The translations under genes were made by a program, and so were the position numbers. Shown piece after piece: positions 13,973 to 35,540 of a stretch of 64,000 bases of DNA (its first letter is position 1; every line of letters starts with the position of its first letter). Origin of the DNA: the human T2T-CHM13v2.0 reference genome, Homo sapiens; the NCBI RefSeq assembly GCF_009914755.1, contig NC_060931.1. One strand, 5' to 3'. The notes beneath the pieces were generated by a model, which was not told where the DNA came from, made no database searches, and saw nothing but the letters and a program-made list of their open reading frames with translations.

Positions 13973-14336
13973 CTACTATGGAGACATAAAAAATAATGAG
14001 ATCATGTCCTTTGCATGGGCATGGTTGGAACTGGAGGTCTTATTTTTAGCTAACTAACGCAGAAGCAGAAAACCAAATACCACATGTTCTCACTTATACG
14101 TGGGAGCTAAATGATGAGAATACATGGACACATAGAGGAGAACAACACACTGGGGCTTACTGCAGGGTGGAGGGTGGGTGAAAGGAGAGGATCAGAAAAA
14201 ATAACTAATGGGTTGTAGGCTTAGTACTGGGGTGATAAAATCATCTGTACTACAAACCCTTGTGACATGAGTTTATCTATATAACAAACATGCACATGTA
14301 CCCCTGAACCTAAAATAAAAGTTTAAAAAATGTAAA
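13973..14336 (+). mobile_element. L1PA13-16-type 3' end
   Basis: AATGAGATCATGTCCTTTGCA...GAGAGGATCAGAAAAAATAACTAATGGG...CCCCTGAACCTAAAATAAAAGTT. Confidence 0.9.
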
Positions 14337-14763
14337 AAGTATGTATTCTCAAGCTTAGAAAAAATACTAGGTTATATACCTAATGTTATCAGTGATGAGA
14401 TTATGGGTGATTAAAATTTATTTCCTTTGTTTCCTGAGTTTTTCTGCATTGAGCACATATTAGTTTCCTTATGTAAATATTAAATACTATGATAAGGGAG
14501 AAAGAGTGGGAGAAAGGAAACATCCCTGGCATATAGAGCTCAGAGTCTTTACACACACAGAAAGACATCACACACACAATTTATGCTATTGTTTTGTGAC
14601 ATTTAGAACATATAGTCTAATAAAAACAGATGTGCAAACAATTTTTTGGCAAGCAACACATTCAAAGATTGGGGCTGCCTGTAGCTGATTACATCGCTGG
14701 TGTGTCAGAAATAGTGTTTTAAGTTCAAAATGCTTGCTAACAGAAATCATTACAATACACAGG

Positions 14764-14820
14764 CTAGTTTGGAGAGAAATAGCCTAAAATTTGGATACAT
14801 TTAAAAGAAAATGTTTCAAT
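14764..14820 (+). repeat. Dispersed ~57-bp repeat, copy A (pairs with 20274-20330)
   Basis: 14776-14814 matches 20286-20324 at 34/39, ungapped, including an exact 16-mer. Confidence 0.8.
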
Positions 14821-15663
14821 GTGTTTATATTCCAACTTAGCCTCAAAGAGGCAACCTTTCAACTTAAGAGTCATTTTGGACAACTGTTCTTGAAATTGTC
14901 TTGTATATAAGACCCAATTAACGGAGACTATTGAAAAATGTTACTTTTTTCTTGTAACCAGACTATGTAGCAAGTAAGAACCCTTGAAGTGATTTAGCAA
15001 AAAATTAATCTTCAGGCCCTTTTAATATAGAACTTACCTGTTTTGTTTTTCTTTCTTTATTGGATTCCTGAGAAAGGAAGGCTGCCAAGTATTTCCTTCA
15101 AGGAAGGTTTGAGGACCCAGTCCTGTCTGCCTCTAGCCAAGAAGAATTTTATTTTGGTTGCTGAAAATTCAAGGAGATTGGCGTTTGCAGGAAAAAGAAG
15201 TGGCTTATAAATGTTGTAGGTGACAAACGTCCAGAAAAAAAATGACTAAGGAAGTAGCACCATAGGTATAGGTGTTTCCCAAGCATGGCCTTGAAGGGAC
15301 AAAGCAAAAGGGGTCAGTGGTCTTCTCAGGGGCAACCAGAATGGCCATGCTATAAGTAACCATTTCCTACTTCTTTACCCTGCCCCCAAGACTTGGTCCT
15401 GCTTAAGACCCTGGAACCTAGAAATAGCCCAAGTTAGAAAAGAAGTCCTGAGCATGACTGAAGTTACATTTCCAATGTATCCCGGCAGGATGGGGACTTG
15501 AAGTTGAACTTAGGTAATATCATACATAATATGATATTTCTTGTGCACCTGAGTTTAAGGACTGTCAAAACCCAGTACAATTCTAACTAAAAGGATGGTC
15601 CGATGATTCCCTCTTTGAAACATGCACACATTTTGTGAAGATACAAAACAGTGGGAATGTGGT

Positions 15664-16074
15664 GTAACCAATTCATGACTGAGGCACTCATTCTCCCAGA
15701 AGCAGAGAGGATTGGTTGCTAAAAGTTCACAATTGTGATCCTTTCTGAGAACTGCCCTCTGCCAAAGGAAGCAGCCTTGCCCCTCCCCAGAGGTGGCCTG
15801 AGTCTCATAATTTATTCATGCAGGGATACAAAGGCGCAGCCCCTTGCCTCAATTTGTGACAATTCTGAAGGCCCATTGCAGCTCCAGAGCTCCCAGTAAG
15901 ATTGGCTGAGTCCTCCATTGCAACTGCATTGCGGTACAACTTCTCCCTCTGCTTCTTCCTGCATCCTTCTCTTCCTTACAAATATTCTCAAGTTCATTCC
16001 CAAACAAACTGCCAGCATGCAAATCTCTGCCTCAAAGGCTGTGAGTCTGTTTTCAGGAAACCCAACTTAGGACA
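15664..16074 (+). mobile_element. LTR16-family (ERVL) solo LTR
   Basis: GAACTGCCCTCTGCCAAAGG, GCCCCTTGCCTCAA, GCTCCAGAGCTCCC, end AGTCTGTTTTCAGGAAACCCAACTTAGGACA. Confidence 0.8.
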
Positions 16075-17683
16075 ATAAACTCCCCTAAGCTTTTCCCATG
16101 AAACAAGCACAATAATTTCAATTTTGCCCAAACATCGATACCTTGTACATTCAGACACCTAATTTTTGTGATTGCTTAAAAGAAGTGGATTTTGTTATAA
16201 CTTTTTCTCCAATGAGAGCATTCATAGAATGTTTTAAGAATCAAGAATTGCTAGGAAAGTACAAATTGTAGGGCATTCCAGAATTTCCTTCTCTGATGGA
16301 CACAAGCCAGAATTGCATTCCAGAAGCTCATTTTTAACATATGGTAGTTGCCATCGACAAAACAACTGTCAAACATCACAGAAATGGAAGATATAAATGA
16401 ACAAATAAGATGCTGATTTATAATGTTTTTATATATCCCTATAGAACAAAAGGGATCATGTTTTCATCAGATGGTCTTTGAGGTCAGTATGGAAATCTGC
16501 TCCATGACTCTGGGATGATACAAAGCCAGACTTTTCCCGTGCTGAACCCACTAGGGAAAGAAATAGGAAGGCATAAAAAGAGAGAAAGTAGTAAGCAATC
16601 ACTTAGTTGTGATTCTGTATAGGTAAATGCTAATTATGTTCCTTATTTCCCCAAATGCCTTCTAACTGGGAGGATTATGGCCATAGGACTGAAGGTGTTG
16701 AATGAGGAGGGAGATGTCTATTTTCTCTCCAGAACTTTTGTTGTTGAATCATCCCTTCATCACTGCTACCAATATTCACCAACAGATGAGATCTAGGAAT
16801 ACAAATTAAGACAAAAAAATAGAAAATAGAAAAAAATTAAAGAATTTTTTAAAATTAAAAAAGCTTAAATGGTGCACATATTTCACCCTCACTCATTAAG
16901 ACTGATAAAAATATTATAATCAATTCAGTTGTAAAGCTACATATTGAACCTCTAAAATATTAAATGTAAAGATCAAATCTAGAATTATTAGAGACTGATC
17001 TTGAGAGAGGCAGAAAGAGTTTGAAACATTTTTTTTTAACTGAAAGACCATTATAAGGATTTTTCCCCCTGCAAAAAGCAAGTTCTCAGTGCTGTGTATT
17101 TTGTTTGTTCACATTTGGACTAAGGTAAGTGAATATAGTTAAGATGGTACATTGGCCTCTTCAGAACAATATGTTACTTTAAGGAGAGAAGCCCAGATTT
17201 TAATTGGGGTAACCAAACCCTCGTCTAGTTTGAACTAGACCAAGATACCTGACATTAAATGATTTGCTTTGTAAAATCAACAAATTAACTAATTGTAATT
17301 TACATTGTTGGTGTCATCAGCTGGATATAATTTCCTACGTGTGCCCAAAGTAACTCTACAACTGCCAAAGGCTTCAGAAGGCAGTCTGGGTTGCCCAAAT
17401 GCCACTGTTCAGCTTCCCAGGGTTATTGGAACAAAGGTATAATACTAATTTGACAACAGTTTTCTGTGTATGGGCATTTGTTTGTTTTTAAGAAAAGATT
17501 TAACAGGAAGAAACAAAGGTTGAGAAAATCTAGAGAAAGAATGAACCCAGATTGTGGACTATAAACATTTGATTTCTTTGATGTAACTTACAACGCTTGG
17601 CAAAGAGATAAGGAAAAAACTCCAAGTGCTTCATGAATATAGAAATAGAAAAAAGAATGCAGATACCCATTCAGTTTGGGGAC

Positions 17684-18117
17684 TATTATAAACGGAATTG
17701 GTCTCCCCCAAATTCATATATTTAAGCCCTAATCCTAATGTGACTATATTTGGAGATAGTGCCTTTAAGAATGTGATTAAGATTAAATGGGGTCATTAAG
17801 GGTTCAGACCTAATCTGCTAGGACTGATGTTCTTGTAAGAAGAGGAAAAGATACCAGAGACCTCTCTCTCTCTCTCTCTCTCTCTCCCTCCCTCCATCTC
17901 TATCTGTCTCCCTCCATGCTGCTCAGAGGAAAGGCCATGTGAGGATATTGAGAAGGCAGACATCTGTAAACCAGGAAGACAGGTGTCAACAGAAACCAAC
18001 CCTGCTGGCACCTTCATCTTGAACTTCTAGCCTCCCCATAGTGAAAAAATAAATTTCTGTTGTTTAAGCCCCTCAGTCTGTGGGATTTTGTTATGGCATC
18101 TCAAGCAGACAAATACA
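17684..18117 (+). mobile_element. MLT1A/A0-type solo LTR with internal (TC)n
   Basis: CCCCCAAATTCATAT...AATAAATTTCTGTTGTTTAAGCC...AATACA; perfect 5-bp TSD GGGAC. Confidence 0.9.
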
Positions 18118-18984
18118 GGGACATTGGTGATAAGTTTCAGGAGTTTTTCAGTGCACTAGAAAGACCTTGATGAGTAGGTATAGGGATAACTTCACCCCTT
18201 CCCATACTTTTCATCTGCTGCCACTTTTTAAAGTTTTGGCATCTTTCAAGTGTTTTCATTTTCCTCATTAGGTTTTGGCACCTCATTTCTTCCTCTCTCT
18301 CTCTCTCCTTCTTTCTTTCCTTCCCTTCTACTTTTTCCATATTTCTTGGTGGCAGTTAGGAATAAATTGTGGGAGGCAACTTCACATGCTGCCTTAAGCC
18401 AGAATTCACCCAGTTATCAATTAAAAGAAAATATACTTAGTACTTAACTACGTGCAAGTTCTGTACCAGGTTCCTGTTAGAAACAAAAGGGTATAGGTCC
18501 TCTAGACATGTGTTATGTTCCTCTTCAGGCTCCCAATAAAAGAATGAATGGCTCTTAATTACATGATCAATGATTTTACCCCTTGAATGAACAGAATTAC
18601 GGTTAAGTGCATTGCAGATGCAAAAAAACAATATTCTTCCATTTGTTTTTAAGTGATGAGTATGAGTTGGCAGGTTTTTAAATTTATTAAAAAATATTTG
18701 GTGAATAAGACACAGACATTTGATTGAAAGCTCCCGGTTTTTAAAGAATCTCCTTCCCTGTAACTCTCCTCTTCTCTTGCTTAGAAAGCAAGTCAGGAAG
18801 CTGTGGCCTACCTGACACTCATTTAGTGAGATACCAATTCAATTCATCTTGGAATCAGCATCTAAATATTCACTTTTATTTTGGTCAACCTGGGTTGGGA
18901 CATGTGTATTTCCAAGGGGCAATGCTAACAAAATGCATGTTTAATGGCTTGGAATAACTACTAGTCAAAAGAATGAAGAGCAAG

Positions 18985-19333
<349 letters not shown>

Positions 19334-19957
19334 TCACCTTTTTCAAGTATTTCCTTACTTACAGTAGATGAACCTGTAGCCTGAGACCATGCTGTTTGAG
19401 CTTCCTGTTCTGGAACAGCCATTTATGCAGCTCTTATGAATAATTAGGGAAAGCCCATTTTCCCATCACTAGCTGTTTTGCATCCAATATCCCTAGTCAC
19501 CCTTCACTTATTCCGCATTCTGTTGTTACTGCTGTTTCTCTTTTCCCCATATTTTTCATGGTCTCCCATTCACAGAAAGACAATCGTCTGTGAAGGGGTG
19601 GGGTACTCCAGCAAACGAACTGAGAATCAGGAGTCCCGGGTTCTGATGCTGCTTTGGCCACATCACTTTACTTGCTCTTAGCTTTGTCTCCTCATCTGCA
19701 AAGCAAAAGCATGGGATAATTCCCTCTCCTAGCACCAAAATTAATATTATATTTCAGAAAAGCATTATCCTATGGCTTATATATAGTTAAATACTTAAGG
19801 ATGAAGATGGGGAAAAAGTGATTTTTTAGAGCTCCATAATTACTTTGTTGGTCGGTCTGAAGACCACTCCTAGGTTCAGTGATTCTCTAGGAGGACTCAC
19901 AGAGCTCAGCATAGAGTCAGATTATGGCAATGATTACTCCATTGAAAGGAAACCAAG

Positions 19958-20144
19958 AACTGGATGAGGTAGTGCATGCCTGTGGTCCCAGCTACTTGGG
20001 AGGCTGAGGCAGGAGGATTACTTGAGGCCAGGAGTTTGAAGCTGTGGTACTCTATGATTGCACATGTGAATAGCCACTGCCCTCCAGCCTGGGCAACATG
20101 ACAGGACCCAGTCTCTAAAAAGGAAAAAAAAGAAAGAAAGAAAG
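19958..20144 (+). mobile_element. FAM (fossil Alu monomer)
   Basis: Single monomer retaining 7SL-derived GTGAATAGCCACTGC; TSD AAA(G/A)GAAACCAAG. Confidence 0.88.
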
Positions 20145-20273
20145 AAAAGAAACCAAGCATATTCAGCCAAAGAAAAAGGCACATGGGCAAGGTCCTGGGG
20201 CAACCAGGCACAAGCTTCCAGAGGTCCTTTCTTACTCAAAGGAGTCACACAGAATACACTTCATTCTCTCAGC

Positions 20274-20330
20274 CTACCTTCGGAGGACATAGCCTAACAT
20301 TTGGATACATTTAACAGAAGCTGTCAAAGA
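20274..20330 (+). repeat. Dispersed ~57-bp repeat, copy B, inserted in MER21
   Basis: Interrupts MER21 between CTCAGC and AAAAGTTGTGACAAC; matches copy A. Confidence 0.8.
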
Positions 20331-20730
20331 AAAAAGTTGTGACAACACGTGTGAAATGTTGTCACTCAGGGAAGCTTGCCCCCAGAGTTTTTACTGGTGG
20401 ATGGCCACATAAGCAGCCTCTGCCTAGCACAGACTCAAATGCCAGCTTCTCAGGAAGAAAGCAGGTGTTCCACATAAACCATAGTATTTGTACAAATAGT
20501 TTAAACATAGTGGGCCACTCTTATCAGTTAATCCTGGTGGGAACCCTCCTGAAACCTAAATTCCAGACACCAGCCAAAGGCCAACCTTGTAAGCAGGCCT
20601 GTCAAAGGATAACAGTCAGACCTGCTGTTAACTCTTTTCTGCACGGTTATATAGCATGTTTATTTCTTAAATCACTCTAGGAATTGGCCACTTGCGTGCT
20701 GCTCTGAGGTGTGTACAAATTTGTATTAAA

Positions 20731-21070
<340 letters not shown>

Positions 21071-22939
21071 AAATTGTATTAAAATAATATTTTCCAAACA
21101 AATTTAATTTTTTTCCCATTAGTAAAGTGGCATTTCCCCTTAAGAAAACTTAGAAAGTAAAAAAGTAGAAAGAATAAAAACATTATAAATAGTAGCAGTT
21201 TCTAAAAATAATTATCTCTAGACCGTCTTTCAGATATTTGAGCATGATTATCACAATCCCTATTTAAATGATATTCTGTTGTTCTCATTTTTATCTTACA
21301 GAAAATTTTTCATATTATCTGAAAACATTTTGCAGACATCATTTGTAATGACTATAATTAATTGTATCATAATTTATACTATGATGAATTTCCCTTTGTC
21401 ATTTAAAAATATTATTAGTAATCTTGTAATGAACATCTTCATGCACAAAACTCTTTATGTATTTAGAATTATTTCTTACGATAGATTCTCAGAAATTGAT
21501 TTACTTACCCAAAGGCTATGAACTTTTTAAAGGCTTTTGTCATCGCTCACTAATGGATCTCCCAGAGTTATAAAATTTGGGTATTCACTAAGAAAAGTAT
21601 TTCTCTAAAGTGAAATGATGTTCTCATGTGTTTTTCTTCCAGTGCATTTCAATAATATTTTTCCCGTTTGTTTTTTTTCCCCTCCCATAACATTGGCCTC
21701 CATGTTATCTAATCATCCCACTGCTAGGATGTGCTTTGGGCAAAGGCAAAACATTCATAAGTCTCTTAAAAAGCAAGACTGTCACCTGGGAATCCGCATC
21801 ATGTCTTATCACAGATTAATTCACCTGTTTCCTGAGCAAATGGGGTACAAGTTCTCCAGGTTTGGACTGGGAGACAAAGGAGGGGGTGGAGAGGGGGACC
21901 AGAAGGAGCTGGGGTGCTGAAATATCCTTGGTAGGGTGGCCGTATGGTGCGGCATGCAGCTAGGCCATGGGTAGATGTGAGAGAGTGACAAATGGGTTCC
22001 AAAATACGAGGTGTGAAATGATACTAAAAGATCCAATCTAATCTTTGTTATAGTCTTGCTCAAGAACAGCTTCCACCCACAGAAGCACCAGAGGTCATGT
22101 AGCTCAAAGAAACCAGGGTTAGAGCAGGACAGCTTAGACTGCAGTGCTCGTGCCGCTGTCTGCTAACTGAGAGGCTGGAGCACATCACCTAGTTCCTGCT
22201 CCTCAGGCCTCTCTTTGGTAAAAGGGGGATAATAGGACATACTCAACCTACCTTACAAGGCTGCTGGGAATCAAGTCCAATTCTGGTAATCAACGATCAG
22301 GAAATCATTCACTCTTCACACACAGCGCCTGGTACATGGGATGTATGAATCAGTGATTATTGAAATTAATAGAAATGGTAGGAGAGAAAATCCCTTATGA
22401 ACTTTCAGACTGGTAGAAAAAAGAAGAGTCTTCACTCCATCCTCAGCTCAGTCTGAAACATCAGGCAAACATAAGATTCTAAAAATTGTGGTTTTTAAAC
22501 AATAACAATTACTGTTCTGTTTTCTGTTGCTAAGAATCAAATCAAAACTTATTCCACTGGCAATAATCTAGTTTCATTGTGGTGAGAATATTTTAATTAT
22601 GAGGCAGTCCTACTGTGCTCTAATATTTGCTCTGTTGGTTTTTTTAAATCAAAAACTCATATATTAAAATGAACTGCTAAAACAAAAATCTCTTAATGAA
22701 TTAACAATAATTAAGTTTAGCCAGATAGTGTGCTCCCTGATAGTGAGTGTGTGTGTGCGTGTGTGTGTGAGTGTGTAAGGTTTCCTGCAATTATAAAAGT
22801 TTTACATATACAATTTAGGAAATATAAAACAATATAAAGAACCAAAATCTTATTGCTCAAAAGCAACCATCATTAATAATTACCACTACTTTCTCCAGTA
22901 TTTTCTTTTATTCCGTTTTTAAAATCACCATTTGTTCTT

Positions 22940-23150
22940 TAGGCTACATAGTGAAATAGAAATGTTATTTTAGAGCATACAGAACTTACTAAAATTTTGC
23001 CTCTGCCACTTGCTAGCTATGCCATCATGGGAAGATTACTTAGTTTCTCTGAGCCTCACTTTCCTCATCCATAAAATGTAAGTAATGATATCTACTTTCC
23101 AAATCAGGATTCATCAAAAATAACATGCACAGATAATTAAAGTGCACACA
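22940..23150 (+). mobile_element. MIR
   Basis: CTCTGCCACTTGCTAGCT...CTCTGAGCCTCACTTTCCTCATCCATAAAATG. Confidence 0.8.
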
Positions 23151-23697
23151 GATCAGTTCTCACAAACTGCAGTACATACAAAACTACAGACCATACCCAG
23201 AACACAAGCTAGAGTTCAAACTATTTAGAAACAACATAGCAAATAATTTGTATTTGTAATAGGTAATGATGCTTATGCACACTAACAGATGTGCATACAG
23301 GGATGTTTTCTGAGCAATGATAATTCTATCGTTAATATTCAATACAACAATAAGGTCTGACAGAATCACCTTCATGCTGACTTGCTGGAGGTCAGAGAGG
23401 CTCAGCTGTCTTCACATAAGGAAGAGGCTGCGTGACTATGAATGACGTCGTCTCACCAGTGCTTGGGGCATGTTAGAAACATAAATTTTATTTATTTATT
23501 CTCTGCTTCCTTTCAAGAGGATTAGAGAGTATAGAGGTGCCAATACAGTTTAAAATAAGACACACAGAGAGGATCCCATCAAACCGAACCACCCCTCATA
23601 CTGATTGAGCACCTACTGTGTGCTAGAGCACTCTGCAGGTGACTGGAGGTAACGGGATAAAGGAGGCCACTCTCCCCAGGAGCTCCCAGGTTGGGAA

Positions 23698-23898
23698 ATC
23701 GTTTCTCAAAGTATGATCCAAAGACCCCTCCTGATCCCTCATATAGAATCACCTACAGTGCTTCTGAAAAATGAAGAAAAAAAAAAGAAGATTGCTGATC
23801 CCCGACTGGGAGTCTCTCCTAATGCAGAATGTTTGGGCCTCTCAACCATTCACCACCTCTCCATTTCATGGTCATGAGTGCTGGGGTTTGAGAATTTT
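23698..23898. mobile_element. MER5-type hAT MITE, followed by a MIR at about 23960-24200
   Basis: GTTTCTCAAAGTATGATCC...AGAATCACCT...GTTTGAGAA termini. Confidence 0.65.
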
Positions 23899-26800
23899 CA
23901 GAGGGGAAACAGGATTAGCAACAGTGAATTCTGAAGTGCTGTACCAGTGTAATGGTCTATTCAGCAGAAGCTTGGAGGTTAAGAATGGTGACTTTGGAAA
24001 GCAACAGACCTGGATTCAATTGCTGACTAGCTGAGACTGTGGTGGAGGCTTGCAGTCTCTCTGAGCCTGTTTTATCATTTGTCCAATGGGTTTAAAGTTA
24101 CCTGCCTCCAAGTGGTGTTGCATTAAATAAGACACTGTTCTATAAGAAAATGCTTAACACATTGCCTCATTCATGGGAGGTACTTGAAATGCAGCGGCCA
24201 TTGTTGTCATCAGTCACATCACAGTCTAGGTCCTACTTTGGCATCAATCAGATCCCAGGGACATAACACAGGTGTTCCCAAGGCCAAGGTCATCCCAGGC
24301 TTCAACAAAACCCTGACCCTGGAGCCTGGCCATTCACCTACAACAGCTAAGGGCTGAATTAACCAAGACTCATTTTTCCCAGCATGAAAAAAGAGGACAT
24401 GCCCTCCTTCTTTGCCTCTTTTCCCTTGTCTCCCTTTTCTCTCTCAGAAAGAAAAGATGCACCACCCCAGGAAAACACAGTGGCAGAAACCTGTTACCAG
24501 TTTTGTCAGATCCCAAAATGGCAGATGGCCGCAGCCTGCAGCCTCTCACTGCATCCAAGATGTCTTCATCTATCTTCCTAGGACCCCAGCAAAATGTTTT
24601 TGGCAAAAGCAGGAGGAAGGGATAAAAATTAAGTATAAGGTGCTGCATTCATAGGGGCTTTTATGGGTCTGGATGTGTAATGATGGTTTAATGGCAATCA
24701 AGAGGCAGGTAATTAGGAACAAGCGGCTCTGATCACCCTTGTACACAGCCACAGATAGCTCCTCCACACTCCTGAAACCTTGTTTGCTTTCTCCGAGGCA
24801 GAAATCCCACAAGGTCTTCACGTTGCCAGCTGTCGAGCTAACGAACTGCCAGTGTGTTCTTGAATGGGAGCACTCAGCCTACCGAGGCTCCCCTGAGCAG
24901 CTTGCGCTGTCTTCACCATGTGATTGCTTTTATCTGGCCAGTGCAGGAGCTGCTCCTAATCACCCTGCTGTTTGCCTCCAAGGGTCAAACTGGGGACCAT
25001 CACTACCTAAACAAATGAGGAGGATGTCACCTTTGGGGGAGACTGATAAGCAGTTGGCAGGCAGGCCACGGGCAAGAGAAGGCGCCAGCAGCCAGCAGTC
25101 TGCAAAGGCCGTAAATATGTTACACTCTCAGCAGGGAGATGGGCAATATAGGCACCAAGAGGCCTTTGTTTAATGAGCTGTCAGAAAGCAGGCATGAAAT
25201 TATGTTTGAAAACATGTGCAAGCTGCAGAGACAGAGCGAGGGCCTATAAATGGCCCTCTTCCTTCATGCTGGATGTTTTGGAGCATCTTATCAGTCTGAG
25301 AACTGTCATAGGATGAAAGCTATCATTAGCAAACTAATGGTGTTTGAAAGCTACAAATTTTTCTATCTCTTCTCCATTTTTGACTTAAATGGATTATAGA
25401 AAAAAAATCTTAATGGTTTTTTTCTTTCCTTGGGATTTTGGTAAACATGCAAATTGGAAGAGAACCAAAAACAAACCGCAAAAAAAGTATCTCTGGAAGA
25501 ACAAACCAAATGGTTATACTTAGAATCTCTGCTCAGAACAGTCAGCTGACATTCTTTTCAATTCTGTTGAGACTCTGTTCAGAGAAATCTAATGCAACTC
25601 CAGCCAGCATTTTATTTCAATCAGGCCCATAAAAGAAAGCATAAATATAAAATAGATTGTTCTCCTATAATCTGAGTATTAAAATTTGTGGGTAGGTATA
25701 ATATCACTTCTACCACATCAGCTATCAAATAATAGAGAATAATTTTTCAAAGACTAGAAATTATTCTTGTGGGTCCCATGGTTGTGAAGTTTATTTCTAT
25801 TCAGGGTGAAACCTAAAGATGTTTAAAAATCTGCCAGGACTGAGAGGCATCGCTGATTTAGGGCGTATTTGGGCCCCAATTCCCAAATTCTGAAAGGATG
25901 CATGAGGGCTTGGTTGCCATACATGGGTCTTTTTCCTTCAGTGCACCACAACCCTGCATTTCCTCCCTCTGATCAAACCAGGCAGCCAGAAATGACTTGC
26001 ACAAACCACTTCCCCATTAAAAGGCCCAAGACTAACCATCTGAAGCTGATTCAGGAGAGGTCGCCAAATTAGCAGGGAATAGTCTCTTGAGACCCATCTT
26101 CTCCGCAGATTGAACAGTAGCAAGCTGCTCCCTTCCAGATTTGAGAAAAGAGGAAGATCTGAATAGGAAATAGGAAATAGCAAAGTTCCATTGAAAAGGT
26201 AAAGGGGTGAAGGTTAGAGAAACAGAAACTAAAAGACAAAGAAAAACAGGAAGAAAAAAAAATGGTGTTTGCCGTACACCATGCATCAATAACTGACATT
26301 CACAGGACACTTTGTTTTCCTGCCTTTTATGCTGGTCCCCTGTGTGTAGATGAGAAATACAAGGTACCTAAAGTCATCCAGCCGATACGTGAGCCAGCCA
26401 TGGAGCCAGGGCTGGGAACCCAGGGCCCACGTCCCTCCCACGCGGGTTTATCATCTTTGAACGCATTCTGCAGGCCCTCTCTCTGAAGGCTGCGCATGGA
26501 TTCTACGTGCAGATCCTGACACAATGTGGGTGCTCAGTCTGCATTTAATGGGGAAAGGAGAGCTTTAGTCCACAGAAGAGACAAGAGAAAATCAAGACAG
26601 AAACAAAATTGGAAGGAGTACAAGCATGGCTATTCTGTGTCCAGAATAGGGCCTGTGAGGCCATGTATTCCTTTTCAGTTTCCCAAGTGCAGAGAGGAAA
26701 TCATCCTTTATTAGGGCTGAAACTACACAGTGGCTTGGGATTGTGGAGATTTCCTGAGGCTGTTCTGTGGAAGTTGGGATTCTTGATATCACTTTTAGTC

Positions 26801-27129
26801 TGGAAAAAAAATTTTTTAAACATTTATTCCAGTTCAATAAATATGGAACGCACTCTTATTAGATGCTGATGCTGTGCTAAGTACTGTGGGGAATGCCAAA
26901 ACGTACATAACAGGATCTCACAGTCCTACCCTCCCATTCTCTCCATCCCCCAACCCTCCCTTCATCCACCTGCCACTCCCAGCTTCTTCCAGGAGTTCAG
27001 GCAAGGGAGAATGATGGTTTGCCAGAATTAAGATTTTTGTTCTTCAGCATCCCCAAGGACTTATATTTATTGAATGTCTACTCTGTGCAATAATCTCAGC
27101 AATACAAAAATATTCATATTGGTAATCTG

Positions 27130-28625
27130 TGCTTATTTATTTGAATTATTTTTTAATTTTTCACCATTCACATGGTTCAAAACTCTCTCCTGCACTTGTC
27201 CAGTCACCTAGTGCCCCTATCCAGAGACAAATAGTGTTATCAGTTTCTTAAGTATCATTCCAGACATTTTTCAATGTATATACAAGCAAATTTTTAGGAT
27301 TTTTATGGCTTTAACTTTTTTGACATTTAAGCCTCTGATTTCCATTTGGTACATATTCTGGTGTGAGAAGTGAGGTATAGATGCACTTTAATTTTTTTCC
27401 ATAATACTACCCAGTTATTCAAACATCATTTATTGTGTAATCTATTTGCTCCCCAATGATGGGAAATGCCACCTTAATCATATCCTAAAATCCTTAGGTA
27501 TACATGCATCCTTTATGTCTATATTCTAAATTTCTGTATGTATTTTGGCCTATGTTAGGCTTCCTGTTTTGTTACATTGATTTGCTATTTATTTATATGT
27601 TAACATTATGCTGTTTTAATTATTGTAGCTTTATAATATGCTTTAATATCTGATAGGACTGATATTAGAACATTGCTATTCTTTTTCAAAATTTTTTTTA
27701 GAATTTTTAAGATATTATTTGTTTTTTACTTGAGGTTTGGAATTAGCCTGTCTTATCAAAAATTACTATTACTATTATATTGTAATTTATTAAATGTATA
27801 AATCAACTTAAGAAAAATTAACATATTGTTGAAGACATCAAGTCTTCCTTTGCCTTTCCATTTGTTGAAATCTTTTGTCTCAGGAACATTTTAAAGTTCT
27901 CTGTTTAAGTAGCATTTAAAGTTTATTTCTAAATATGTTATATTTGTTGGAACTCCTGTAAATGTGACTTTTTAAAATTACATCTTCTAACACTTTTTGA
28001 TTGTTCTAATAACTTTTTATAAGCTTCTGTACGTTAGCTATGTGCCCAGTCATCTGTTACTGTTTGTAACAGGTTTAAATAAATACGTGGAGGTTTTCCA
28101 GGCAGGAAATTCTATCATCCACAAATAATGATAGTTTTATTTTCTTCTTTTCAGTATTTATATGTCCAGTTTCTTTATCTTGCATAATTATATCGTCATC
28201 TTCAGAAAAGTCTTACATAATAGTAGTGAAATTGAAATCCTAATATTCAATGTATTAATAAAACTTGAATGGATATTAAATTTTATCAAATGCCTTTTTA
28301 ACATTTATGAGACTGATCATATGAATTTCTTCCTGGAATCTGTTAATATGGTGAATAAATTAATAGATATTCTAAAATTGAACTCTTTGCATTTTTGCAA
28401 TAAAGCCCACTTGGCTCATTGTGGCAGAGACTTTTAGGAACTTTTTTCATGACTTCTATTTTCAAGATATTTAACAGTTTTAGTTTTTTACCCAAAAGTT
28501 ACCCAAAACTTATTTAATGACAAGCTTTTAATATCTAGGCAGTAAGAACTTTTTGTTTTTATTATTAAGTCCCAGTTGTATTGCATTGTGACTTTTTCTA
28601 ATTTTTGGAATATATTGAGAGTTTC
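27130..28625 (-). mobile_element. Ancient L1M(E) fragments
   Basis: T-rich antisense L1 motifs: CCCAGTTATTCAAACATCATTTATTG, TTTAATTATTGTAGCTTTATAATATG, ATTTTATCAAATGCCTTTT. Confidence 0.8.
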
Positions 28626-28659
28626 TTCTCTCATAGATAACTATTTCACTAATGTATGG

Positions 28660-29690
28660 CTCCTGAAATCTCTAACACCTCTCCTCTATCTTCATTTTTA
28701 GGTGATGAGCTTGTTTCCCACTTCACTGGAAAACAAAATGGGAATATTCAGAAGATAAGTTCCACAGCTCCCATAGCATCTTCCTATCTACCAGGATTTG
28801 GACCTTCTACACCCTGCTCCCATTAAGGAATTAGCCTTGCTCTTGTCCAAAACTAGCCTTTGCGTATGCCTTAGATCCTATCCCCCTTGCTTGCTCACAG
28901 GCTTTGCTCCAGCAATTCTCCCTATTTTTCCCCTATACCATCAGCTTCCTCTCTCTACTAGGTCATTTCCACCAGCACACAACAATACTGTCTCTCTCAT
29001 CTTAGAAATGGAAACTAACAAAATTGAGTTCACTTTTCCTTCTGACACTATCCCTTTTCTACCTCCCCCACTTTACAGCAAAACTCTTTGAAAGCTGCCT
29101 GAATTTCACTGCTTCCATTTCCTCTCCTCTTCTCACTTAAACCTACTGCTGCCAGAACCGGGACTCCACCACCTCACCAGACCCCTGCTTGTCAATATCA
29201 TCAATGACTTCCATCTTGCTAAATCCATTTCTTGTCCCCATTGAACTTGACCCTCAGTAACACCTTGTCAAATTAACCACTCCCTTCTCATGGAAATGAT
29301 TTCTTGTTTTCTAAGACACTACACATTTCGTTTTCCTTCAACACCCCTGGATGCTGCTTCCCAGTCTTGTCCCTTAACCTCCTAGCACTGAAGTGATGCA
29401 GGGCTCAGTCCACAGATCTCTTCATCTTTCCTGTTCACTCCATACTCACCCTCTTGGTAATTCCCTTCCAGTTTCATCGTTTAAATGGCATCTGTCTGCA
29501 AATGATTATCAAATGTATGCCTCCAGCCATGGCCACTGCTCTCAACGTTAGCTTATCCATCTAACTGTCAACTCTGTATCTCTACCTGGACGCCTGATGG
29601 AGGTCTCCAATGTACCATGCCCTAAACTGAAATTTTGATCTTCTTTATCCACAGAATCTGCTCGACCCTATCTCAGTTAAAGGTATCTAT
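28660..29690 (+). mobile_element. L2 fragment (about 1 kb)
   Basis: CACTTCACTGGAAAA, CAATGACTTCCATCTTGCTAAATCCA, CCCTATCTCAGTTAAAGG. Confidence 0.8.
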
Positions 29691-29892
29691 GCCCTGGTCT
29701 AGAAGGCCTTCAGTAATTAGAAAGCATGTATTTTGTGTGTATGCCTTGATAAGTGTTGACTGTAGCTATAGCAAGGGATAATTCATCATCAGGAAATGGT
29801 CAGGAGAGTGTCTCCAAATCTTTTAAGCATGCGCTAACCTTCATATATAGGGTCCTTGTATTACCTTTTCTCAAGTTGTACTATAATGTCCC

Positions 29893-29951
29893 GACCTTCA
29901 AAAGACCTTATCCTTGTACATTTGAGGACTCTTATCTTTCCTAATTAAAGT
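29893..29951 (+). repeat. Dispersed 58-59-bp repeat, copy D
   Basis: 52/59 ungapped identity to 20998-21056. Confidence 0.92.
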
Positions 29952-30389
29952 CAGATGGTTGTCTTGTGGGTTTTCTTCTTCCTTTCTCTTTTGTGAGCTG
30001 CCTCTTAACAGCTGTGGTGTGTTGCTAGTGAATTATCAGTGGACAGACGTGAGATTCCTTTATGATGTTAAATGACATATTACAGTGTTTTTTCTCCACA
30101 AACTACAAAAGCTAAACATCATAGACAATATTAAATCTTATGCAAGAGTTATCTATTTTACAAAACATTAGTTGATTTCTAAAATAGAGTTGCACATTTT
30201 TTTGGCTGTTTTCCTAACATGTGCTCTATTTCATGAGAAATATTTTCAGAGCATTAAATGATGGTTTCTGGTTTAAACGTTTTAGACAACAAACAACAGC
30301 AAAAAATTTTCTCTGACCTTAAATGCTGGAATGAGGTAATCATTATTAAGGAACAGCTAAATTAAAATTAAGGCATGCCAGTGTAATCA

Positions 30390-30895
30390 TTGACTCAGGC
30401 AAGGGTCATCAACAGATGCGTATACCATTGAAGAATACATTACATGGTTTCAAGTTATCATTATACAGATTACTTATTAATTACAATGGAGAGAATTGCA
30501 AGACACCACCTAACTAAGTGATGTAAACAGGCATCATTAATAATAAGACAAACTGTCATTTTGTGCCTCCTGATACGATGGGGAAGTTTATAACATCACT
30601 TGCTTAGAATTCTTACCAAAAATATTTAACCTGAATATGACCAGGGGGAAACAAACAAAAAAAATGAAAAATCCAGCAATAATAATACTATAATTACATA
30701 GGAACAAGTCCTTTGTCTAAGAATATGCATTTGAGCCTGAAGTATCATAATAAGCACAACTCACTGTCAAATAGTTCACTGATGGGGGGTGCAAATTGTT
30801 GACAGTTGTTGAATCTAGACAAAGAGTATATAGGTATTCATTGTACTCTTCTTTCCAATTTTCTGTAAGTTTGACATTTTTCAAAATAAAAAGAG
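30390..30895 (+). mobile_element. L1MC/ME 3'UTR
   Basis: ACACCACCTAACTAAGTGAT...GTATTCATTGTACTCTTCTTTCCAATTTTCTGTAAGTTTGA...AAAATAAAAA. Confidence 0.75.
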
Positions 30896-32140
30896 GAAAA
30901 GTCATAAATTAGCGGTTCTGGGAAGAGAAAATATCAGTTGTTACAGTCATATATCTCTGTAACCTGCACTCACTGCAATGTTTCATTGAGATTTATTAAA
31001 AATGACAAGAAGATATGTCTACCTCAAAACTCCAGCAGAACATTTTTCTCAAGATGGTAGACTAAGCCACCATTAAAACTAAAGATGTTATTTGAGCTAA
31101 AGGAATAATAAACACAGTCACCGTCTACCTACTCTCTCAAACTAGCAGGTTCATTCACTCTTAACTCCTCCCCTCTTCCACCTTCCAGCCCCCATGTTTA
31201 ATCAACCAGTTACCAAATACTGAAGATTCTACCTCACAATCTCCCCCAAATTTAGCATCTCTTCTCCATGCATCAGGTACTACATGATTACCAGGAAGAC
31301 TCCATGACTGTGTGCATGCCAGTCTTCTGTAGGGAACACCTTCCCTTCCTTCTCTCTCAAGTGACTTTCGTCTCCATTCAGGTTCAAAGCCATCTGCTCT
31401 GTGGAGATGGAGGCTTGTTGCTCCTTCTGCTGGTTCCCACTGCGTTTTGCGTTTCCTATAGCACATCTCCCATAGGGCTGTGCTGTGCTCTGACTGGATG
31501 TTTCCGTGTCTTACCACTGGACTGTACCTCATGGATCTTTGGTCCCAGTTCCTACCACTGCTAACAGGCACACAATGATGTTCAAATTATATTTGTAGGA
31601 ATTAATGAGGAAACCAGGGAAGACAAGATAAGCTAATCGTGAACTAAAATGAAAAAACTTGTTTTAAACAAGACTGTTTCTAAAGTTATACTGGCCCAAA
31701 TTGTACATCTAGTCTGTTATAATCTTTATTTTAAAGCTTTCTAAGGGAATCAAGATAAGGTTAAGTTGATGCACTGTGAGAATGTAGAAGGCAGACGTTT
31801 TGAATACTGGGTTCTGTGAAAATAACTCTGTTACAACAGAAAATCTCGTAAGGCATGGATTGTAAGGGAACAGGTCTTAGGGAAATAGGTTTGTCCAGTA
31901 TGTCAGAATTTTGGAAGAATAAAGGCTGGAGAAATAAGGCTAACTGGAGTGGGAGTGACCCTAGAAATTTCCAGTCCTTGCCTCTGAGATCCTTACCCCA
32001 TTGCTGACCAGGAGAGTCATATGTTGTGATGCATCACGGAGGAGTCACTAGCAATGTTTCTCTCACTCTTATGTCTTTTAGAAACTGTTTAGGAGGAATG
32101 GGAAACAAGATTTTCATGCTGTCACCCATTCAAGTTCACT

Positions 32141-32451
32141 TTTTGTGTTTGTTTTTAAGAGATAGGGTATGGCTCTGTCATGCAGGCTGGAGTGCAGTGG
32201 CATGATCACAGCTCACTGCAACTCAAATTCCTGGGCTCAAGAAACCCTCCCATCTCAGTCTCCTGAGTATCTAGAACTACAGGTGCACCACCATGCCCAG
32301 CTACATGTGGTTGTTGTTGTTGTTGCTTTTGTTGTAGATACAGGGTCCTGCCAGTTGCCCAGGCTGGTCTCAAACTGCTGTCCTCAAGTGATCCTCCTGC
32401 CTTGGCCTCCCAGAGCACTGGGATTACAGATGTGAACTATCGTGCCTGGTC
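32141..32451 (-). mobile_element. AluJ
   Basis: Antisense dimer with J diagnostics and (GTT)n linker; imperfect TSD ATTCAAGTTCACT/ACTTAAGTTCAGT. Confidence 0.93.
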
Positions 32452-32669
32452 ACTTAAGTTCAGTTTTAATGCAGCTGTTCTGTGATAAAAGGCTGTTCAG
32501 TTCTGTGACAAAAGACTTCCAGAAAACTTCTTCAGCATCCTGTGTAGCAGTGTGCAAGGGCATACAAATATTTTTTTGAAAATAATATATTTACAAGGGA
32601 GCAACTGGGAATCAAAACCATATCTAACATTAAATTTCATTTCCAATATGAATGGATTTAAAAGCACAG

Positions 32670-32849
32670 GGGCAATATTGTGTTTAATGGGTACAGAGTT
32701 TCAGTTTGGGATGACGAAAATGTTCTAGAGATTGATGGTAATGACGGTTGCACAACCACATGAATGCACTTAATGCCATTGAATTGTATAGTTTAAATGG
32801 TTAGAATGGTAATTTTTATGTTATATATATTTTACCACAATTAAAAAAA
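32670..32849 (+). mobile_element. L1MB 3' end
   Basis: GTTTAATGGGTACAGAGTTTCAGTTTGGGATGA...TTTTACCACAATTAAAAA. Confidence 0.9.
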
Positions 32850-35540
32850 CATGAACGGAGAAACATCTTGAGTTAAAGAGAGATATTTTTAGATTTGCCA
32901 AACCACAGATTTTTGAAAAGCTGTTTGGAAAATTCTGAGGGAATCTCTCTTTCCATCCTGGCTCTGATGAATTCACTTATATTGTTGCATGACATTGCTC
33001 AGAGTTGGGGGGATGGGGAGAGTCTCATAGTTTAAACTTTCCTCTATGTGGAGATCTGATTCTAAAACATAAGATCCACAAGATAGTCTCAAATCTCTTT
33101 TCAAGGGCCCTACTTCTGCCAAGCTCAAGCTTCCTGGTCTGTGCCAGACAGGGTGCCCATTCACCAGGATTTCCTCTCATCTCTCCTCACTTGTGGATAT
33201 TACTACCCAGGACATGGCCCTGGTAGATTTTGGGTCCAGGGAAGAGGAGGTGCATGTTACCTGGCACATCATAACTATATTTTTGTCAAATGTTGAATAA
33301 ATGTGTGTGTGCACAGGAAGCATTCAAAAGCAGAGGATGCTTTTTGAAAAAAACTTTGCCTGTGAGCTAAAAATGTAAACCTTATTTAGGATTGTCCTCC
33401 TGTGTCTAAGGATTTGTTGATATAACACCTTTGCTTATAGCATTAGTATTGTGATGAGAGAAGTCTAACAGAATGTATTTTTTAAAAACAGTGAGCTCTT
33501 AAAGATCATCCTGAAAAGTTTCTCCTCTCCTCCTCTGGAGTTGCCAAGCTTTCTTCTCTTTTTTACAATTGTTCACATGGACTCTGCATTTCTTTGCTGA
33601 AAGAAGGGAACCCTGTCTCTTTTAGATATACTTTCTAGGGTTACATTGAAATAATCTACTTTAAAGCCGAGACCCTAAAGACCTCAAGGCATAGGTAGAC
33701 ACTGAGGCACAATGGCCATATATTATATAACAATTGCCATATTACTGAATGAATGCAAAGGGAACCCAATGATACATGTGAATGTCCATTTTTGTTGGAA
33801 GAATATCTGGCATGTTTCCCTGTTATACTCTAGAATTGTAGAGACAATGCAGATGTTTCTCTCAACAAGAGCTTTCCAAAATTTTCCTGACAATGATGTG
33901 TTTGGGCTGACAAAGATGGTGCCAACACCACTCTGGCCTCTCATCCTATTTCCCCTTTCACTCTTCACAGTGTCTTGAGCACAGACAACCCTTTATCTTG
34001 GATGGTCTCTGAGAACCCTGTTTTTTCCCCTGCATTGGCAGCTTTCCCTTATATACTGATTTTTTAATATATTACTATCATTATTAATAGTACCAATGAT
34101 AATAATATTTTCCTTCTGTGCACCAGCTACTTTGCATATAATATCATGTTTCAATCCCAAGAGGTAGAATAGATATTGTCAGTTACACTTTCTAGATGCA
34201 GAAATTAAAGAGAAGCGAAGGGACATAGTTAGTCCAAATCTCTGTGATGTATTTAATGTGCTGTGTATGCTGCTTGAGACTTCATCATACTGTGTAGGCC
34301 CAACTTTGGATCTGCAAACAGGTAGCACCTACATTCAAGGTTGGGAGGTCTTTCTTCCTCAGAATCCTTTCTTATTCTTCAGCCTTTTCTTAGAAAACCC
34401 TGTTGTTCTATCCAATAGGAAAGCAAGTTTAATGTAAATAACATCTAAAGAACACTTTCCAGACTTTTACCAGCTGCGGGAAACAAAGAAGGCATATAAT
34501 GCTGAAAAGCACTAAGGTATCAAGAACACATCTTAACTCTATATGAACTGATCACACATAATTTGGTACTCTAAGCACACTTCACAATATTTTTCATTTT
34601 TGTAATCCCAAGTAGCCTGGCTACATGTATGGCAATAAATTACCTTCAAAAAGAAATTCAGTGTCAGCTAGAGGGGTTAAAAAACTATTTGAAAATAAAA
34701 GGACAAAATATTTAATTTATTAGGAATCATCAACTACTTTTATCTGAATTCCACTGGATAAAATGAAGAACCAGAATGTATCCCCCTGTTTTATTTCTTG
34801 TGTGTATGTGTTCCTTTGTTGTCAATAACAAAGAGTAGGAGGGGCTTAGCACTTAGCATTATCAGAAAATATAATATTTTGAGAAGAGGCAGAGCAAGAT
34901 GGCCGAATAGAAGCCTCCAGCAATCATTCTTCCCGCAGGAACACTAAATTGCACAACTATCCACACATAAAAGTACTTTCATAAGATCCAAAAATCAGGT
35001 GAGTAATCACAGTACCTGGTTTTAACTTCATATCACTGAAAGAAGCACTGGAGAGGGTAGGAAAGATAGTCTTGAACTGCCAACACCACTCCTCTCTCAT
35101 TCTCCAGCAGCAGGCTTATGCCTCAGAGAAAGAATCTGTGCACTTGGGTGAGGGACAGCACAATGACTGTAGGACTTTGCATTGGAACTCAGTACACCAG
35201 GCAGAACTCAGCCAGCACCTATGGAGGAAGCATTTAGTCTAAACCTAGCCAGAGGGGAATCATCTCTTCTCCAGTCACAACCTGAGTTCCCACAGCCCTG
35301 CTACCATGGGCTAAAGTGCTCTGGGGTTCTAAGGAAACTCAAAAGGCAGTCTGGGCCACAAGGACTGCAATTTCTTCACAAGTCATGGTGCTGTGCTGGA
35401 CTCGGAGCCCGGGGACTTGAGGGGGCATGCAACCTAGTGAGACACCAGCTGGAGTGGCTAAGGGAGTGCTTGCCCTACTCCTCCTTCTACCCCAGGCAGT
35501 GAAGCTCACAGCTCTAGGAGAGATTCCTTACCTCCGCTTG

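What the first reader, a model, noticed from the sequence alone, without database searches (positions are those of the whole stretch)
14764..33413. Candidate unannotated family of ~57-60 bp modular dispersed elements (at least 4, possibly 6 copies, both strands)
Seen: two strong pairs (A 14764/B 20274; C 20998/D 29893). B, C and D start xACCTTC, end AAAG and contain GAGGAC followed by (C/T)CTAA. Two more loci seem to bridge the pairs. G (16139-16185, +) TACCTTGTACATTCAGACACCTAATTTTTGTGATTGCTTAAAAGAAG begins like D (CCTTGTACATT) and continues like A/B (CCTAA..TTTG...TTAAAAGAAG). J (33354-33413, -) ATCCTTAGACACAGGAGGACAATCCTAAATAAGGTTTACATTTTTAGCTCACAGGCAAAG matches D (ATCCTT..ACA...GAGGAC; CCTAA.TAA.GT) and B (GGAGGACA; TACATTT-N12-CAAAG). 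A CCT...AGG stem can form in B, D and J, and with a wobble in C. B and C interrupt unrelated transposons, so they are younger than their hosts, yet they lack a consistent poly-A tail or TSD. Inference: a tiny mobile or templated unit with mosaic copies, possibly a structured RNA. G and J rest on gapped alignments made by eye and could be chance.
Basis: partly seen in the sequence, partly recalled or inferred. Interest (0 to 1): 0.8.

Follow-up and report, generated by a model that had tools for sequence, protein, structure and literature searches.

The report
Two patch-repair copies, not a family
The supposed family of tiny mobile elements is really two separate old repair scars, where a break inside a transposon was patched by copying about 60 bases from unique DNA a few kilobases away, which is a known and ordinary kind of event.

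Summary
The two strong pairs are real. A/B matches over 77 alignment columns at 76.6% (40/51 within the insert). C/D matches over 59 bases at 88%. Everything that was said to join them into one family is chance: G, J and the B-to-C/D motifs score inside the shuffled and window-wide nulls. No fold is better than shuffles, and Rfam has no match at any of the six loci.

Each pair occurs only twice in the whole assembly.
- B is a 57-nt insertion in an old solo-LTR-like repeat of about 550 bp. All 7 other copies that align on both sides show an empty site.
- C replaces the last ~20 nt of an Alu. It lies between the Alu body and its A-rich remnant, inside the Alu's 14-nt target-site duplication.
- A and D lie in single-copy DNA 5.5 kb upstream and 8.9 kb downstream, on the same strand.

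So A was copied into B, and D into C. This matches the published class of repair-mediated duplications (Pace et al. 2009, PLoS Genet; capture of nearby DNA by synthesis-dependent strand annealing). Neither event is in that paper's Table S1, as far as I could check.

One thing remains open. The two acceptors lie only about 670 bp apart, which could be coincidence, a break hot spot or one complex event. Interest is low.

The parts
14765..14814 (+). A: donor of B, in single-copy DNA. The BLAST homology starts at 14740, but the stretch before 14765 aligns to host LTR sequence and is weak.
   Evidence: pair. (40/51 identical on diagonal -5510). (701-nt context found once in the genome). (core pattern with <=3 mismatches: A, B and one hit on another chromosome; control 1).
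19846..20645 (+). Host of B: an old solo-LTR-like interspersed repeat. It is also split by a partial Alu with an A-run at about 19958-20160.
   Evidence: 531 candidates, 40 scored, 70-77% identity. (host pieces 19854-19957, 20143-20273, 20327-20662). (copies have a discrete extent of about 540-550 bp and about 70% pairwise identity). (copies start TGTG.. and end ..GCACA).
20274..20330 (+). B: 57-nt templated insertion (acceptor) copied from A, 5.5 kb upstream.
   Evidence: 7 of the 7 host copies that align on both flanks have the flanks adjacent, with a 57-column gap opposite B. No duplication or loss of host bases is visible at the site.
20717..20730 (+). 5' copy of the Alu target-site duplication (AAATTTGTATTAAA).
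   Evidence: It matches 21070-21083 at 13 of 14 positions.
20731..20990 (+). Alu body, host of C. It lacks its last ~20 nt.
   Evidence: sub-threshold SRP and mir-1268 matches typical of Alu. (matches to other Alus). (7 other Alus of the window run on into their normal 3' end and A-run where this one turns into C).
20991..21056 (+). C: templated insertion (acceptor) copied from D, 8.9 kb downstream. The ungapped core is 20998-21056. The homology probably starts at ACTATAA, with a small indel.
   Evidence: 52/59 identical; the gapped alignment extends to ACTATAA. (only C and D in the genome; control 0).
21057..21069 (+). A-rich remnant of the Alu tail.
21070..21083 (+). 3' copy of the Alu target-site duplication (AAAATTGTATTAAA).
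29881..29951 (+). D: donor of C, in single-copy DNA. The ungapped core is 29893-29951.
   Evidence: (the 751-nt context is found once in the genome, plus the 59-nt match to C).

Best explanation
B and C are two repair-mediated duplications. In each case a chromosome break inside a transposon was mended by a DNA end that paired, through a few bases of microhomology, with unique DNA a few kilobases away on the same chromosome. That end copied about 55-70 nt, came off, and was joined back to the other side of the break. This is synthesis-dependent strand annealing, or a related templated end-joining. The broken hosts were a solo-LTR-like repeat for B and the 3' end of an Alu for C.

A (5.5 kb upstream) is the unchanged donor of B. 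D (8.9 kb downstream) is the unchanged donor of C. The two pairs are unrelated to each other. G and J are ordinary single-copy sequence with chance resemblances.

What is shown: the insertion status of B and C, the uniqueness of both pairs, and the single-copy context of A and D. What is inferred: the break, the strand invasion and the repair pathway.
For: 1. B is an insertion. Of 29 fetched copies of the host repeat, 25 aligned and 7 aligned on both flanks (3 on the left flank only, 15 on the right flank only). In all 7 the flanks are adjacent where the window has 57 extra nt. One search shows the same for L022.
2. C lies within an Alu insertion unit: body 20731-20990, then C, then a 13-nt A-rich remnant, all bracketed by a 14-nt target-site duplication (13/14). 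Seven other Alus of the window continue into the normal 3' end where this one carries C.
3. Both edges of the C/D homology coincide with the discontinuities in the Alu. The A/B homology coincides with the gap in the LTR. This fixes the direction of copying.
4. Each sequence exists only twice in the 3.1-Gb assembly. DNA searches with C and D each return self plus partner. Patterns with <=3 mismatches give A, B and 1 other hit against a control of 1, and C and D only against a control of 0.
5. The contexts of A (701 nt) and D (751 nt) are single-copy.
6. Donors and acceptors are on the same chromosome and strand.
7. B has no target-site duplication. C comes with a deletion of the Alu 3' end. Short shared bases sit at the junctions: AC at the left edge of C, and CAG.C at the left edge of B.
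8. The class is published. Pace et al. 2009 (PMC2671141; abstract and sections 6, 7, 8, 14, 21 read; Table S1 searched) define it as follows: an insert of >=50 bp in a transposon, one other copy in the genome, a donor mostly nearby, and microhomology, deletion or filler at the breakpoints.
Against: - Both donors are further than the paper's 5-kb limit for its confidently assigned 'proximal' class. They would fall in its 58 intrachromosomal >5 kb cases, a group in which retroposition was not excluded.
- The junction microhomologies are short (2-4 nt). After 12-22% divergence the original junctions cannot be read with certainty.
- An A6 run (20330-20335) follows B, and an A-rich stretch follows C. 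Both are explainable by host bases or the Alu tail, but they are also what an RNA-mediated event would leave.
- No outgroup genome was available, so no orthologous empty site was seen.
- The genome DNA search missed A when queried with B. Relatives below about 80% identity would therefore escape. By my binomial estimate a family of up to roughly 90 (A/B) or 550 (C/D) copies at 70% identity cannot be excluded from the pattern searches alone.
Confidence: 0.78

Rival explanations
1. One complex event, or a recurrent break hot spot. B and C would have been made together by a replicative repair that switched template several times (MMBIR/FoSTeS-like or break-induced replication), first to A and then to D. 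Alternatively the 19.8-21.1 kb stretch is a fragile site that broke twice.
For: - The two acceptors are only about 670 bp apart, with donors on either side and all four copies on one strand.
- If the two acceptors were placed uniformly in 64 kb, the chance of such closeness is about 0.023.
- The divergences do not differ significantly: 11/51 vs 7/59, Fisher p = 0.20.
Against: - About 670 bp of undisturbed host sequence (the rest of the LTR, its flank and the Alu body) lies between the two inserts.
- The point estimates of age differ about twofold: 58 vs 29 Myr, with wide overlapping intervals.
- The locus was picked because it showed two pairs, so the closeness is partly a selection effect.
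Confidence: 0.12
2. RNA-mediated origin. C, and possibly B, would be a product of LINE-1 reverse transcriptase jumping between templates, giving a chimeric retrocopy (Alu RNA plus a local transcript) made when the Alu inserted. It would not be a later DNA repair event.
For: - The whole unit of Alu body, C and A-rich stretch is bracketed by one target-site duplication. That is also what a chimeric retrocopy looks like (chimeric retrogenes are recalled from the literature, not read here).
- In Pace et al., 17 of 29 inspected interchromosomal cases (their comparison group for the <5 kb duplications) carried poly-A/T tracts.
- D carries an ATTAAA hexamer near its 3' edge.
Against: - The donor is 8.9 kb away on the same strand of the same chromosome. 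That is very unlikely for an RNA drawn from the whole transcriptome.
- The copied tract ends 3 nt after the hexamer, not at a usual cleavage distance.
- The Alu part lacks its own 3' end, so two jumps would be needed.
- B has no target-site duplication at all.
Confidence: 0.06
3. One reading: one unannotated family of ~57-60 bp modular, mosaic dispersed elements (A, B, C, D, G, J), mobile or RNA-templated, possibly a structured RNA.
For: - B, C and D share ACCTTC near the start, GAGGAC inside and AAAG at the end.
- B-J scores 15, which 3 of 1000 shuffles reach.
Against: - The cross-pair, G and J scores are within the window-wide and shuffled nulls.
- The shared motifs of B fall in the part of B that already aligns, more weakly, to its own donor A.
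- There are only two copies of each sequence genome-wide.
- The contexts of G and J are single-copy.
- There is no fold signal and no Rfam match at these loci.
- No terminal repeats or target-site duplications were seen.
Confidence: 0.02
4. A/B and C/D are fragments of two very old, low-copy interspersed repeats that happen to lie near each other.
For: The genome search is blind below about 80% identity for short queries (one search missed A). No Dfam library was available.
Against: - B and C are inserts whose homology edges coincide with breaks in younger or datable hosts.
- The contexts of A and D show no other copy.
- The partner of each copy lies within 9 kb, and nothing else was found in 3.1 Gb.
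Confidence: 0.02

Closest known systems
[quoted passage not shown]
   Same: - An insert of >=50 bp interrupts a transposon.
- The insert is found at only one other place in the genome.
- The donor is on the same chromosome, a few kb away.
- B has no target-site duplication.
- There is a deletion of host bases (C) and short microhomology at the junctions.
- The divergences (12% and 22%) are in or just above the range listed in Table S1 for primate-wide events.
   Different: - The donor distances of 5.5 and 8.9 kb exceed the paper's 5-kb cut for 'proximal' RDs.
- The inserts (57 and about 66 nt) are at the short end; the proximal median is 147 bp.
- C would not pass the paper's pipeline, because only a 13-nt tail remnant lies on its 3' side.
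- Neither event appears in Table S1. No chr7 row has hg18 coordinates 25.3-25.79 Mb. The hg18 position is my own estimate.
Doublets: short paired duplications (Thomas et al. 2004, PNAS 101:10349). Known to me only through Pace et al.'s description and recall; the paper is not held.
   Same: Short (<100 bp) sequences present exactly twice, close together on one chromosome.
   Different: Doublets were defined as exact or near-exact matches. As I recall, they are mostly about 1 kb apart. These pairs are old (78-88% identity) and 5.5-8.9 kb apart.
Templated insertions of polymerase-theta end joining and MMBIR (search listing and abstracts only: PMC4490562, PMC8421209)
   Same: Nearby sequence is copied into a break through microhomology-primed synthesis, without changing the donor.
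   Different: From recall, those inserts are usually shorter and templated within tens to hundreds of bases of the break. Here they are 57-66 nt, taken from 5-9 kb away.
Chimeric retrocopies made by LINE-1 reverse-transcriptase template switching (recalled, not read here)
   Same: For C only: an Alu part fused to an unrelated piece, with an A-rich end and one target-site duplication around the whole.
   Different: The donor is adjacent in cis, the Alu part lacks its own 3' end, and B has no target-site duplication.

Membership tests
Repair-mediated duplication (Pace et al. 2009) | An insert of at least 50 bp interrupts a transposable element at one consensus position. | tested here: met
   B: a 57-nt gap in 7 of 7 two-flank copies of the host repeat. 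C: about 59-66 nt between the Alu body and tail remnant, inside the Alu target-site duplication, compared with 7 other Alus.
Repair-mediated duplication (Pace et al. 2009) | [quoted passage not shown] | tested here: met
   C finds D and D finds C, and nothing else. The A/B core pattern finds A, B and one 3-mismatch hit, equal to the control count. Sensitivity is limited below about 80% identity.
Repair-mediated duplication (Pace et al. 2009) | The donor lies within 5 kb on the same chromosome (the paper's confidently assigned 'proximal' class). | tested here: not met
   Same chromosome and strand, but 5,510 and 8,895 bp apart. They fall in the paper's >5 kb intrachromosomal bin (n = 58).
Repair-mediated duplication (Pace et al. 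2009) | No poly-A/T tract of 5 or more bases at an end of the insert, and no retroposition-type target-site duplication. | tested here: inconclusive
   B has no target-site duplication. An A6 run at 20330-20335 occupies positions where host copies mostly read AATGAG. The A-rich stretch after C is best read as the Alu's own tail.
Repair-mediated duplication (Pace et al. 2009) | Microhomology, deletion or filler at the breakpoints. | tested here: met
   C: the Alu's last ~20 nt are missing and AC is shared at the left junction. B: CAG.C is shared at the left junction, and there is a possible 7/8 match (AATG.GTT) at the right. This is weak because the events are old.
Repair-mediated duplication (Pace et al. 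2009) | An empty orthologous site in an outgroup species. | not testable with these tools
   No other primate or mammalian genome is held.
   There are two copies of each sequence only. The profiles find no further member in the window. B has no target-site duplication.
Structured RNA family | A fold more stable than shuffles and conserved between copies, or an Rfam match. | tested here: not met
   z-scores run from -1.63 to +1.27. C and D fold differently. The 12 Rfam matches at E<=1 all lie in Alus and below their gathering scores.

The most novel reading that the evidence does not exclude
B and C, about 670 bp apart, were written in one multi-template-switch repair or replication event that sampled a donor 5.5 kb upstream and another 8.9 kb downstream. 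Alternatively they mark a recurrent germline break hot spot. Either would be an unusual 'double patch' form of repair-mediated duplication. A third short local duplication at 58.8-59.1 kb in the same window hints at a region prone to such events.
Probability: 0.12. Interest if true: 0.35.

Novelty: new member of a known kind. Interest (0 to 1): 0.15.

Why it matters
The result removes a candidate 'new element family' from the scan. In its place are two clean examples of a known mutational process: nearby DNA captured during break repair.

They show that donor and acceptor can be told apart from one genome alone, by using transposon copies as empty-site controls. They also show that such events extend beyond the 5-kb and two-sided-transposon limits of the published catalogue. 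That catalogue is therefore likely to undercount old, short or tail-proximal events.

No function is implied for any of the four sequences.

Tried and rejected
- Longer homology around the pairs: none on either diagonal within ±2.5 kb. This rules out decayed LTR pairs or a decayed tandem duplication.
- Long target-site duplications of two large insertions (A..B and C..D as flanks): rejected. B has contiguous host LTR on both sides, and C lies inside an Alu unit.
- One family: rejected by pairwise shuffles, a window-wide score census and nhmmer profiles.
- Structured RNA: rejected by folding and Rfam.
- Host of B as LINE-1: this was my first guess, from the many X-chromosome hits. I dropped it once the copies showed a discrete extent of about 550 bp with TG..CA ends. 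I could not name the family without Dfam.
- Thomas et al. 2004: not held.
- Searching Table S1 of Pace et al. for these loci: no row found.


Full report
**1. What is in the sequence**

All six quoted strings are at the stated places. I ran a word-7 blastn of each locus, with 150 nt on either side, against the window. It gave two strong matches:
- A/B: 14740-14814 vs 20249-20324, 77 columns, 76.6%, E 3.1e-9.
- C/D: 20998-21056 vs 29893-29951, 59 columns, 88.1%, E 1.6e-13.

Nothing at E<1 joins G or J to any of A-D, or joins A/B to C/D. Widening to ±2.5 kb shows no further homology on either diagonal. These are isolated short matches, not the visible tips of longer decayed repeats.

**2. Is there one family?**

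No. Three tests agree.
- Smith-Waterman scores against 1000 dinucleotide shuffles:

| Pair | Score | Shuffles reaching it (of 1000) |
|---|---|---|
| A-B | 32 | 0 |
| C-D | 45 | 0 |
| B-C | 11 | 35 |
| B-D | 11 | 23 |
| A-C | 9 | 282 |
| A-D | 8 | 497 |
| A-G | 12 | 25 |
| B-G | 12 | 16 |
| C-G | 12 | 19 |
| D-G | 13 | 8 |
| A-J | 11 | 37 |
| B-J | 15 | 3 |
| C-J | 10 | 164 |
| D-J | 10 | 103 |

- G and J were chosen by eye from the whole window, so the right null is window-wide. Of 4264 60-nt chunks on both strands, 133-296 score >=11, 66-131 score >=12 and 10-22 score >=15 against A, B, C or D. Several unrelated AT-rich places score higher than G or J.
- nhmmer profiles built from AB, CD and ABCD (run with --max) recover only their own members, at 33-78 bits. 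The next best window hits are 5-6 bits. G is never listed at E<=100. J appears once, under the CD profile, at 3.5 bits (E 6.1). The AB profile does not list C or D, and the CD profile does not list A or B. Twenty block-wise dinucleotide-shuffled windows reach 10.3-12.4 bits.

The proposed stem adds nothing. Fold z-scores are -0.15, +1.14, +0.25, +0.10, +1.27 and -1.63 for A, B, C, D, G and J, and C and D fold differently. Rfam at E<=1 over 14-34 kb gives 12 matches. All are below their gathering scores, all lie in Alus, and none falls at the six loci.

**3. Copy number in the genome**

The window's assembly (3.1 Gb) can be searched.
- C (76 nt) and D (81 nt) each find only themselves and each other.
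- A 35-place C/D pattern with up to 3 mismatches finds only C and D. The reversed-pattern control finds 0.
- The 26-place A/B core pattern with up to 3 mismatches finds A, B and one 3-mismatch hit on another chromosome. The control finds 1.
- The DNA search with B found only B itself and missed A. The tool is therefore blind to short matches near 77% identity.
- My binomial estimate is that the pattern searches would still have seen a family of more than about 13-32 copies at 80% identity. They could miss about 90-550 copies at 70%.
- The contexts of A (701 nt), D (751 nt), G (351 nt) and J (361 nt) are each found once.

**4. B is an insertion**

A 572-nt query around B hit a large old repeat family: 531 candidates, 40 scored, 70-77% identity. 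In several copies the two flanks of B lie 3-14 bp apart, where the window has 60-71 bp.

I re-aligned the 29 fetched loci:
- 25 gave a match.
- 7 matched on both flanks, 3 on the left flank only and 15 on the right flank only.
- In all 7 two-flank copies the site is empty. The multiple alignment shows a clean 57-column gap opposite window 20274-20330, with no duplicated or missing host bases.
- L022 shows the same with a longer query.

The host copies have a discrete extent of about 540-550 bp and about 70% pairwise identity. They start TGTG.. and end ..GCACA. The host (window 19846-20645) therefore looks like a solo LTR. I could not name it without Dfam. It is also split by a partial Alu with an A-run at about 19958-20160.

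**5. C is an insertion**

The Alu at 20731 is preceded by AAATTTGTATTAAA (20717-20730). The same 14-mer, with one change, recurs at 21070-21083. This is the Alu's target-site duplication.

Inside it lie, in order:
- the Alu body, to 20990;
- C, to 21056;
- 13 A-rich bases.

Seven other Alus of the window run on from the same point into their normal 3' end and A-run. C therefore replaces the last ~20 nt of the Alu and part of its tail. With a small indel, the homology to D starts at ACTATAA, directly at the Alu break, and ends directly at the tail remnant.

**6. Direction and mechanism**

B and C are inserts in datable hosts. A and D sit in single-copy DNA. Each pair's homology ends where the host is broken. 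So A was copied into B, and D into C. Both donors are in cis, on the same strand, 5,510 and 8,895 bp away.

The junctions look like this:
- B has no target-site duplication.
- C comes with a host deletion.
- The junctions share a few bases: AC at the left edge of C, CAG.C at the left edge of B, and possibly AATG.GTT at the right edge of B.

This is the signature of repair-mediated duplication as described by Pace et al. 2009 (PMC2671141). I read the abstract and sections 6, 7, 8, 14 and 21, and searched Table S1. That study covers:
- inserts of >=50 bp in transposons with exactly one other genomic copy;
- 1,136 such cases, of which 824 have the donor within 5 kb and 58 are intrachromosomal beyond 5 kb;
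- 39 inspected proximal cases, none with a poly-A/T tract, whose breakpoints showed microhomology of 2-9 nt, deletions, filler or short target-site duplications;
- synthesis-dependent strand annealing as the proposed pathway.

The break, the strand invasion and the choice of pathway are inferred here, not shown.

**7. Age**

| Pair | Mismatches | Age estimate (Myr) | Binomial interval (Myr) |
|---|---|---|---|
| A/B | 11/51 | about 58 | 28-108 |
| C/D | 7/59 | about 29 | 12-62 |

These use the paper's rate of 2.2e-9 per site per year on both copies, with Jukes-Cantor correction. The two divergences do not differ significantly (Fisher p = 0.20). C must be younger than its Alu, which makes it primate-specific by established knowledge of Alu.

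**8. What stays open**

- **Distance.** Both donors lie beyond the 5-kb limit inside which Pace et al. could exclude retroposition.
- **RNA route for C.** C's unit is bracketed by the Alu's target-site duplication and ends A-rich. A chimeric retrocopy made by reverse-transcriptase template switching is therefore not excluded. The cis donor 8.9 kb away, and the need for two jumps, make it unlikely (I give it about 6%).
- **A-run after B.** An A6 run follows B, but it occupies positions where host copies mostly read AATGAG.
- **Closeness of B and C.** The acceptors are about 670 bp apart. The naive chance of this within the window is about 0.023. However, the locus was selected for having two pairs, and about 670 bp of intact host lies between them. 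I give a single complex event or a hot spot about 12%.
- **No outgroup.** No outgroup genome or Dfam library was available.

**9. Novelty**

The kind of event is known.
- Table S1 of Pace et al. (both sheets) has no chr7 row with hg18 coordinates 25.3-25.79 Mb. The hg18 position of this locus is my own estimate, not a liftover.
- Their pipeline would probably miss both events. C has no annotated transposon piece on its 3' side. B matches its donor at only 78% over 51 nt (one search gives their criteria).
- Full-text searches for 'short paired duplications', 'templated insertions' combined with microhomology, and 'repair-mediated duplication' turned up no description of this locus. I saw those search listings only, apart from the one paper I read.

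**Verdict:** two ordinary new instances of a known class. The proposed element family is not real.

Noticed in passing
window 58836-58908 and 59017-59089: A third short local duplication: 73 columns, 86%, direct, 181 bp apart, GC-rich. Both copies seem to begin with the terminal bases of the antisense Alu fragment at about 58780-58855, so it would be younger than that Alu. Not searched genome-wide.
   Followed up: partly
window 19958-20160 within 19846-20645: A partial Alu with an A-run is inserted in the same LTR-like host as B. In copy L010 the host pieces on either side overlap by 14 nt (1378-1391), which is consistent with that Alu's target-site duplication.
   Followed up: partly
window 20313-20336: The 3' end of B can be aligned to the donor in two ways, as if the donor's AAAAGAAAATGT had been copied twice imperfectly (a stutter). 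This is speculative and rests on an alternative alignment only.
   Followed up: no
window 43903-43989 and 44608-44525: An inverted pair, 87 columns at 72%, 622 bp apart, with depth 1 in the window's self-comparison. Its nature was not examined.
   Followed up: no
window 13495-13673 and 14101-14295: A direct pair, 197 columns at 64%, 606 bp apart. It overlaps a stretch masked in NCBI's file and lies just upstream of donor A. Not examined.
   Followed up: no
window 19123-19272, 19957-20117, 20732-20973, 32157-32303: Sub-threshold Rfam matches to Metazoa_SRP, mir-1268 and mir-3135 all fall in Alu elements. They are the usual Alu-derived look-alikes, not RNA genes.
   Followed up: yes
L008 (G000:C20:33746879-33746904): The only other genomic match to the A/B core pattern has 3 mismatches. 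The reversed-pattern control also gave one hit, so I took it as chance.
   Followed up: no
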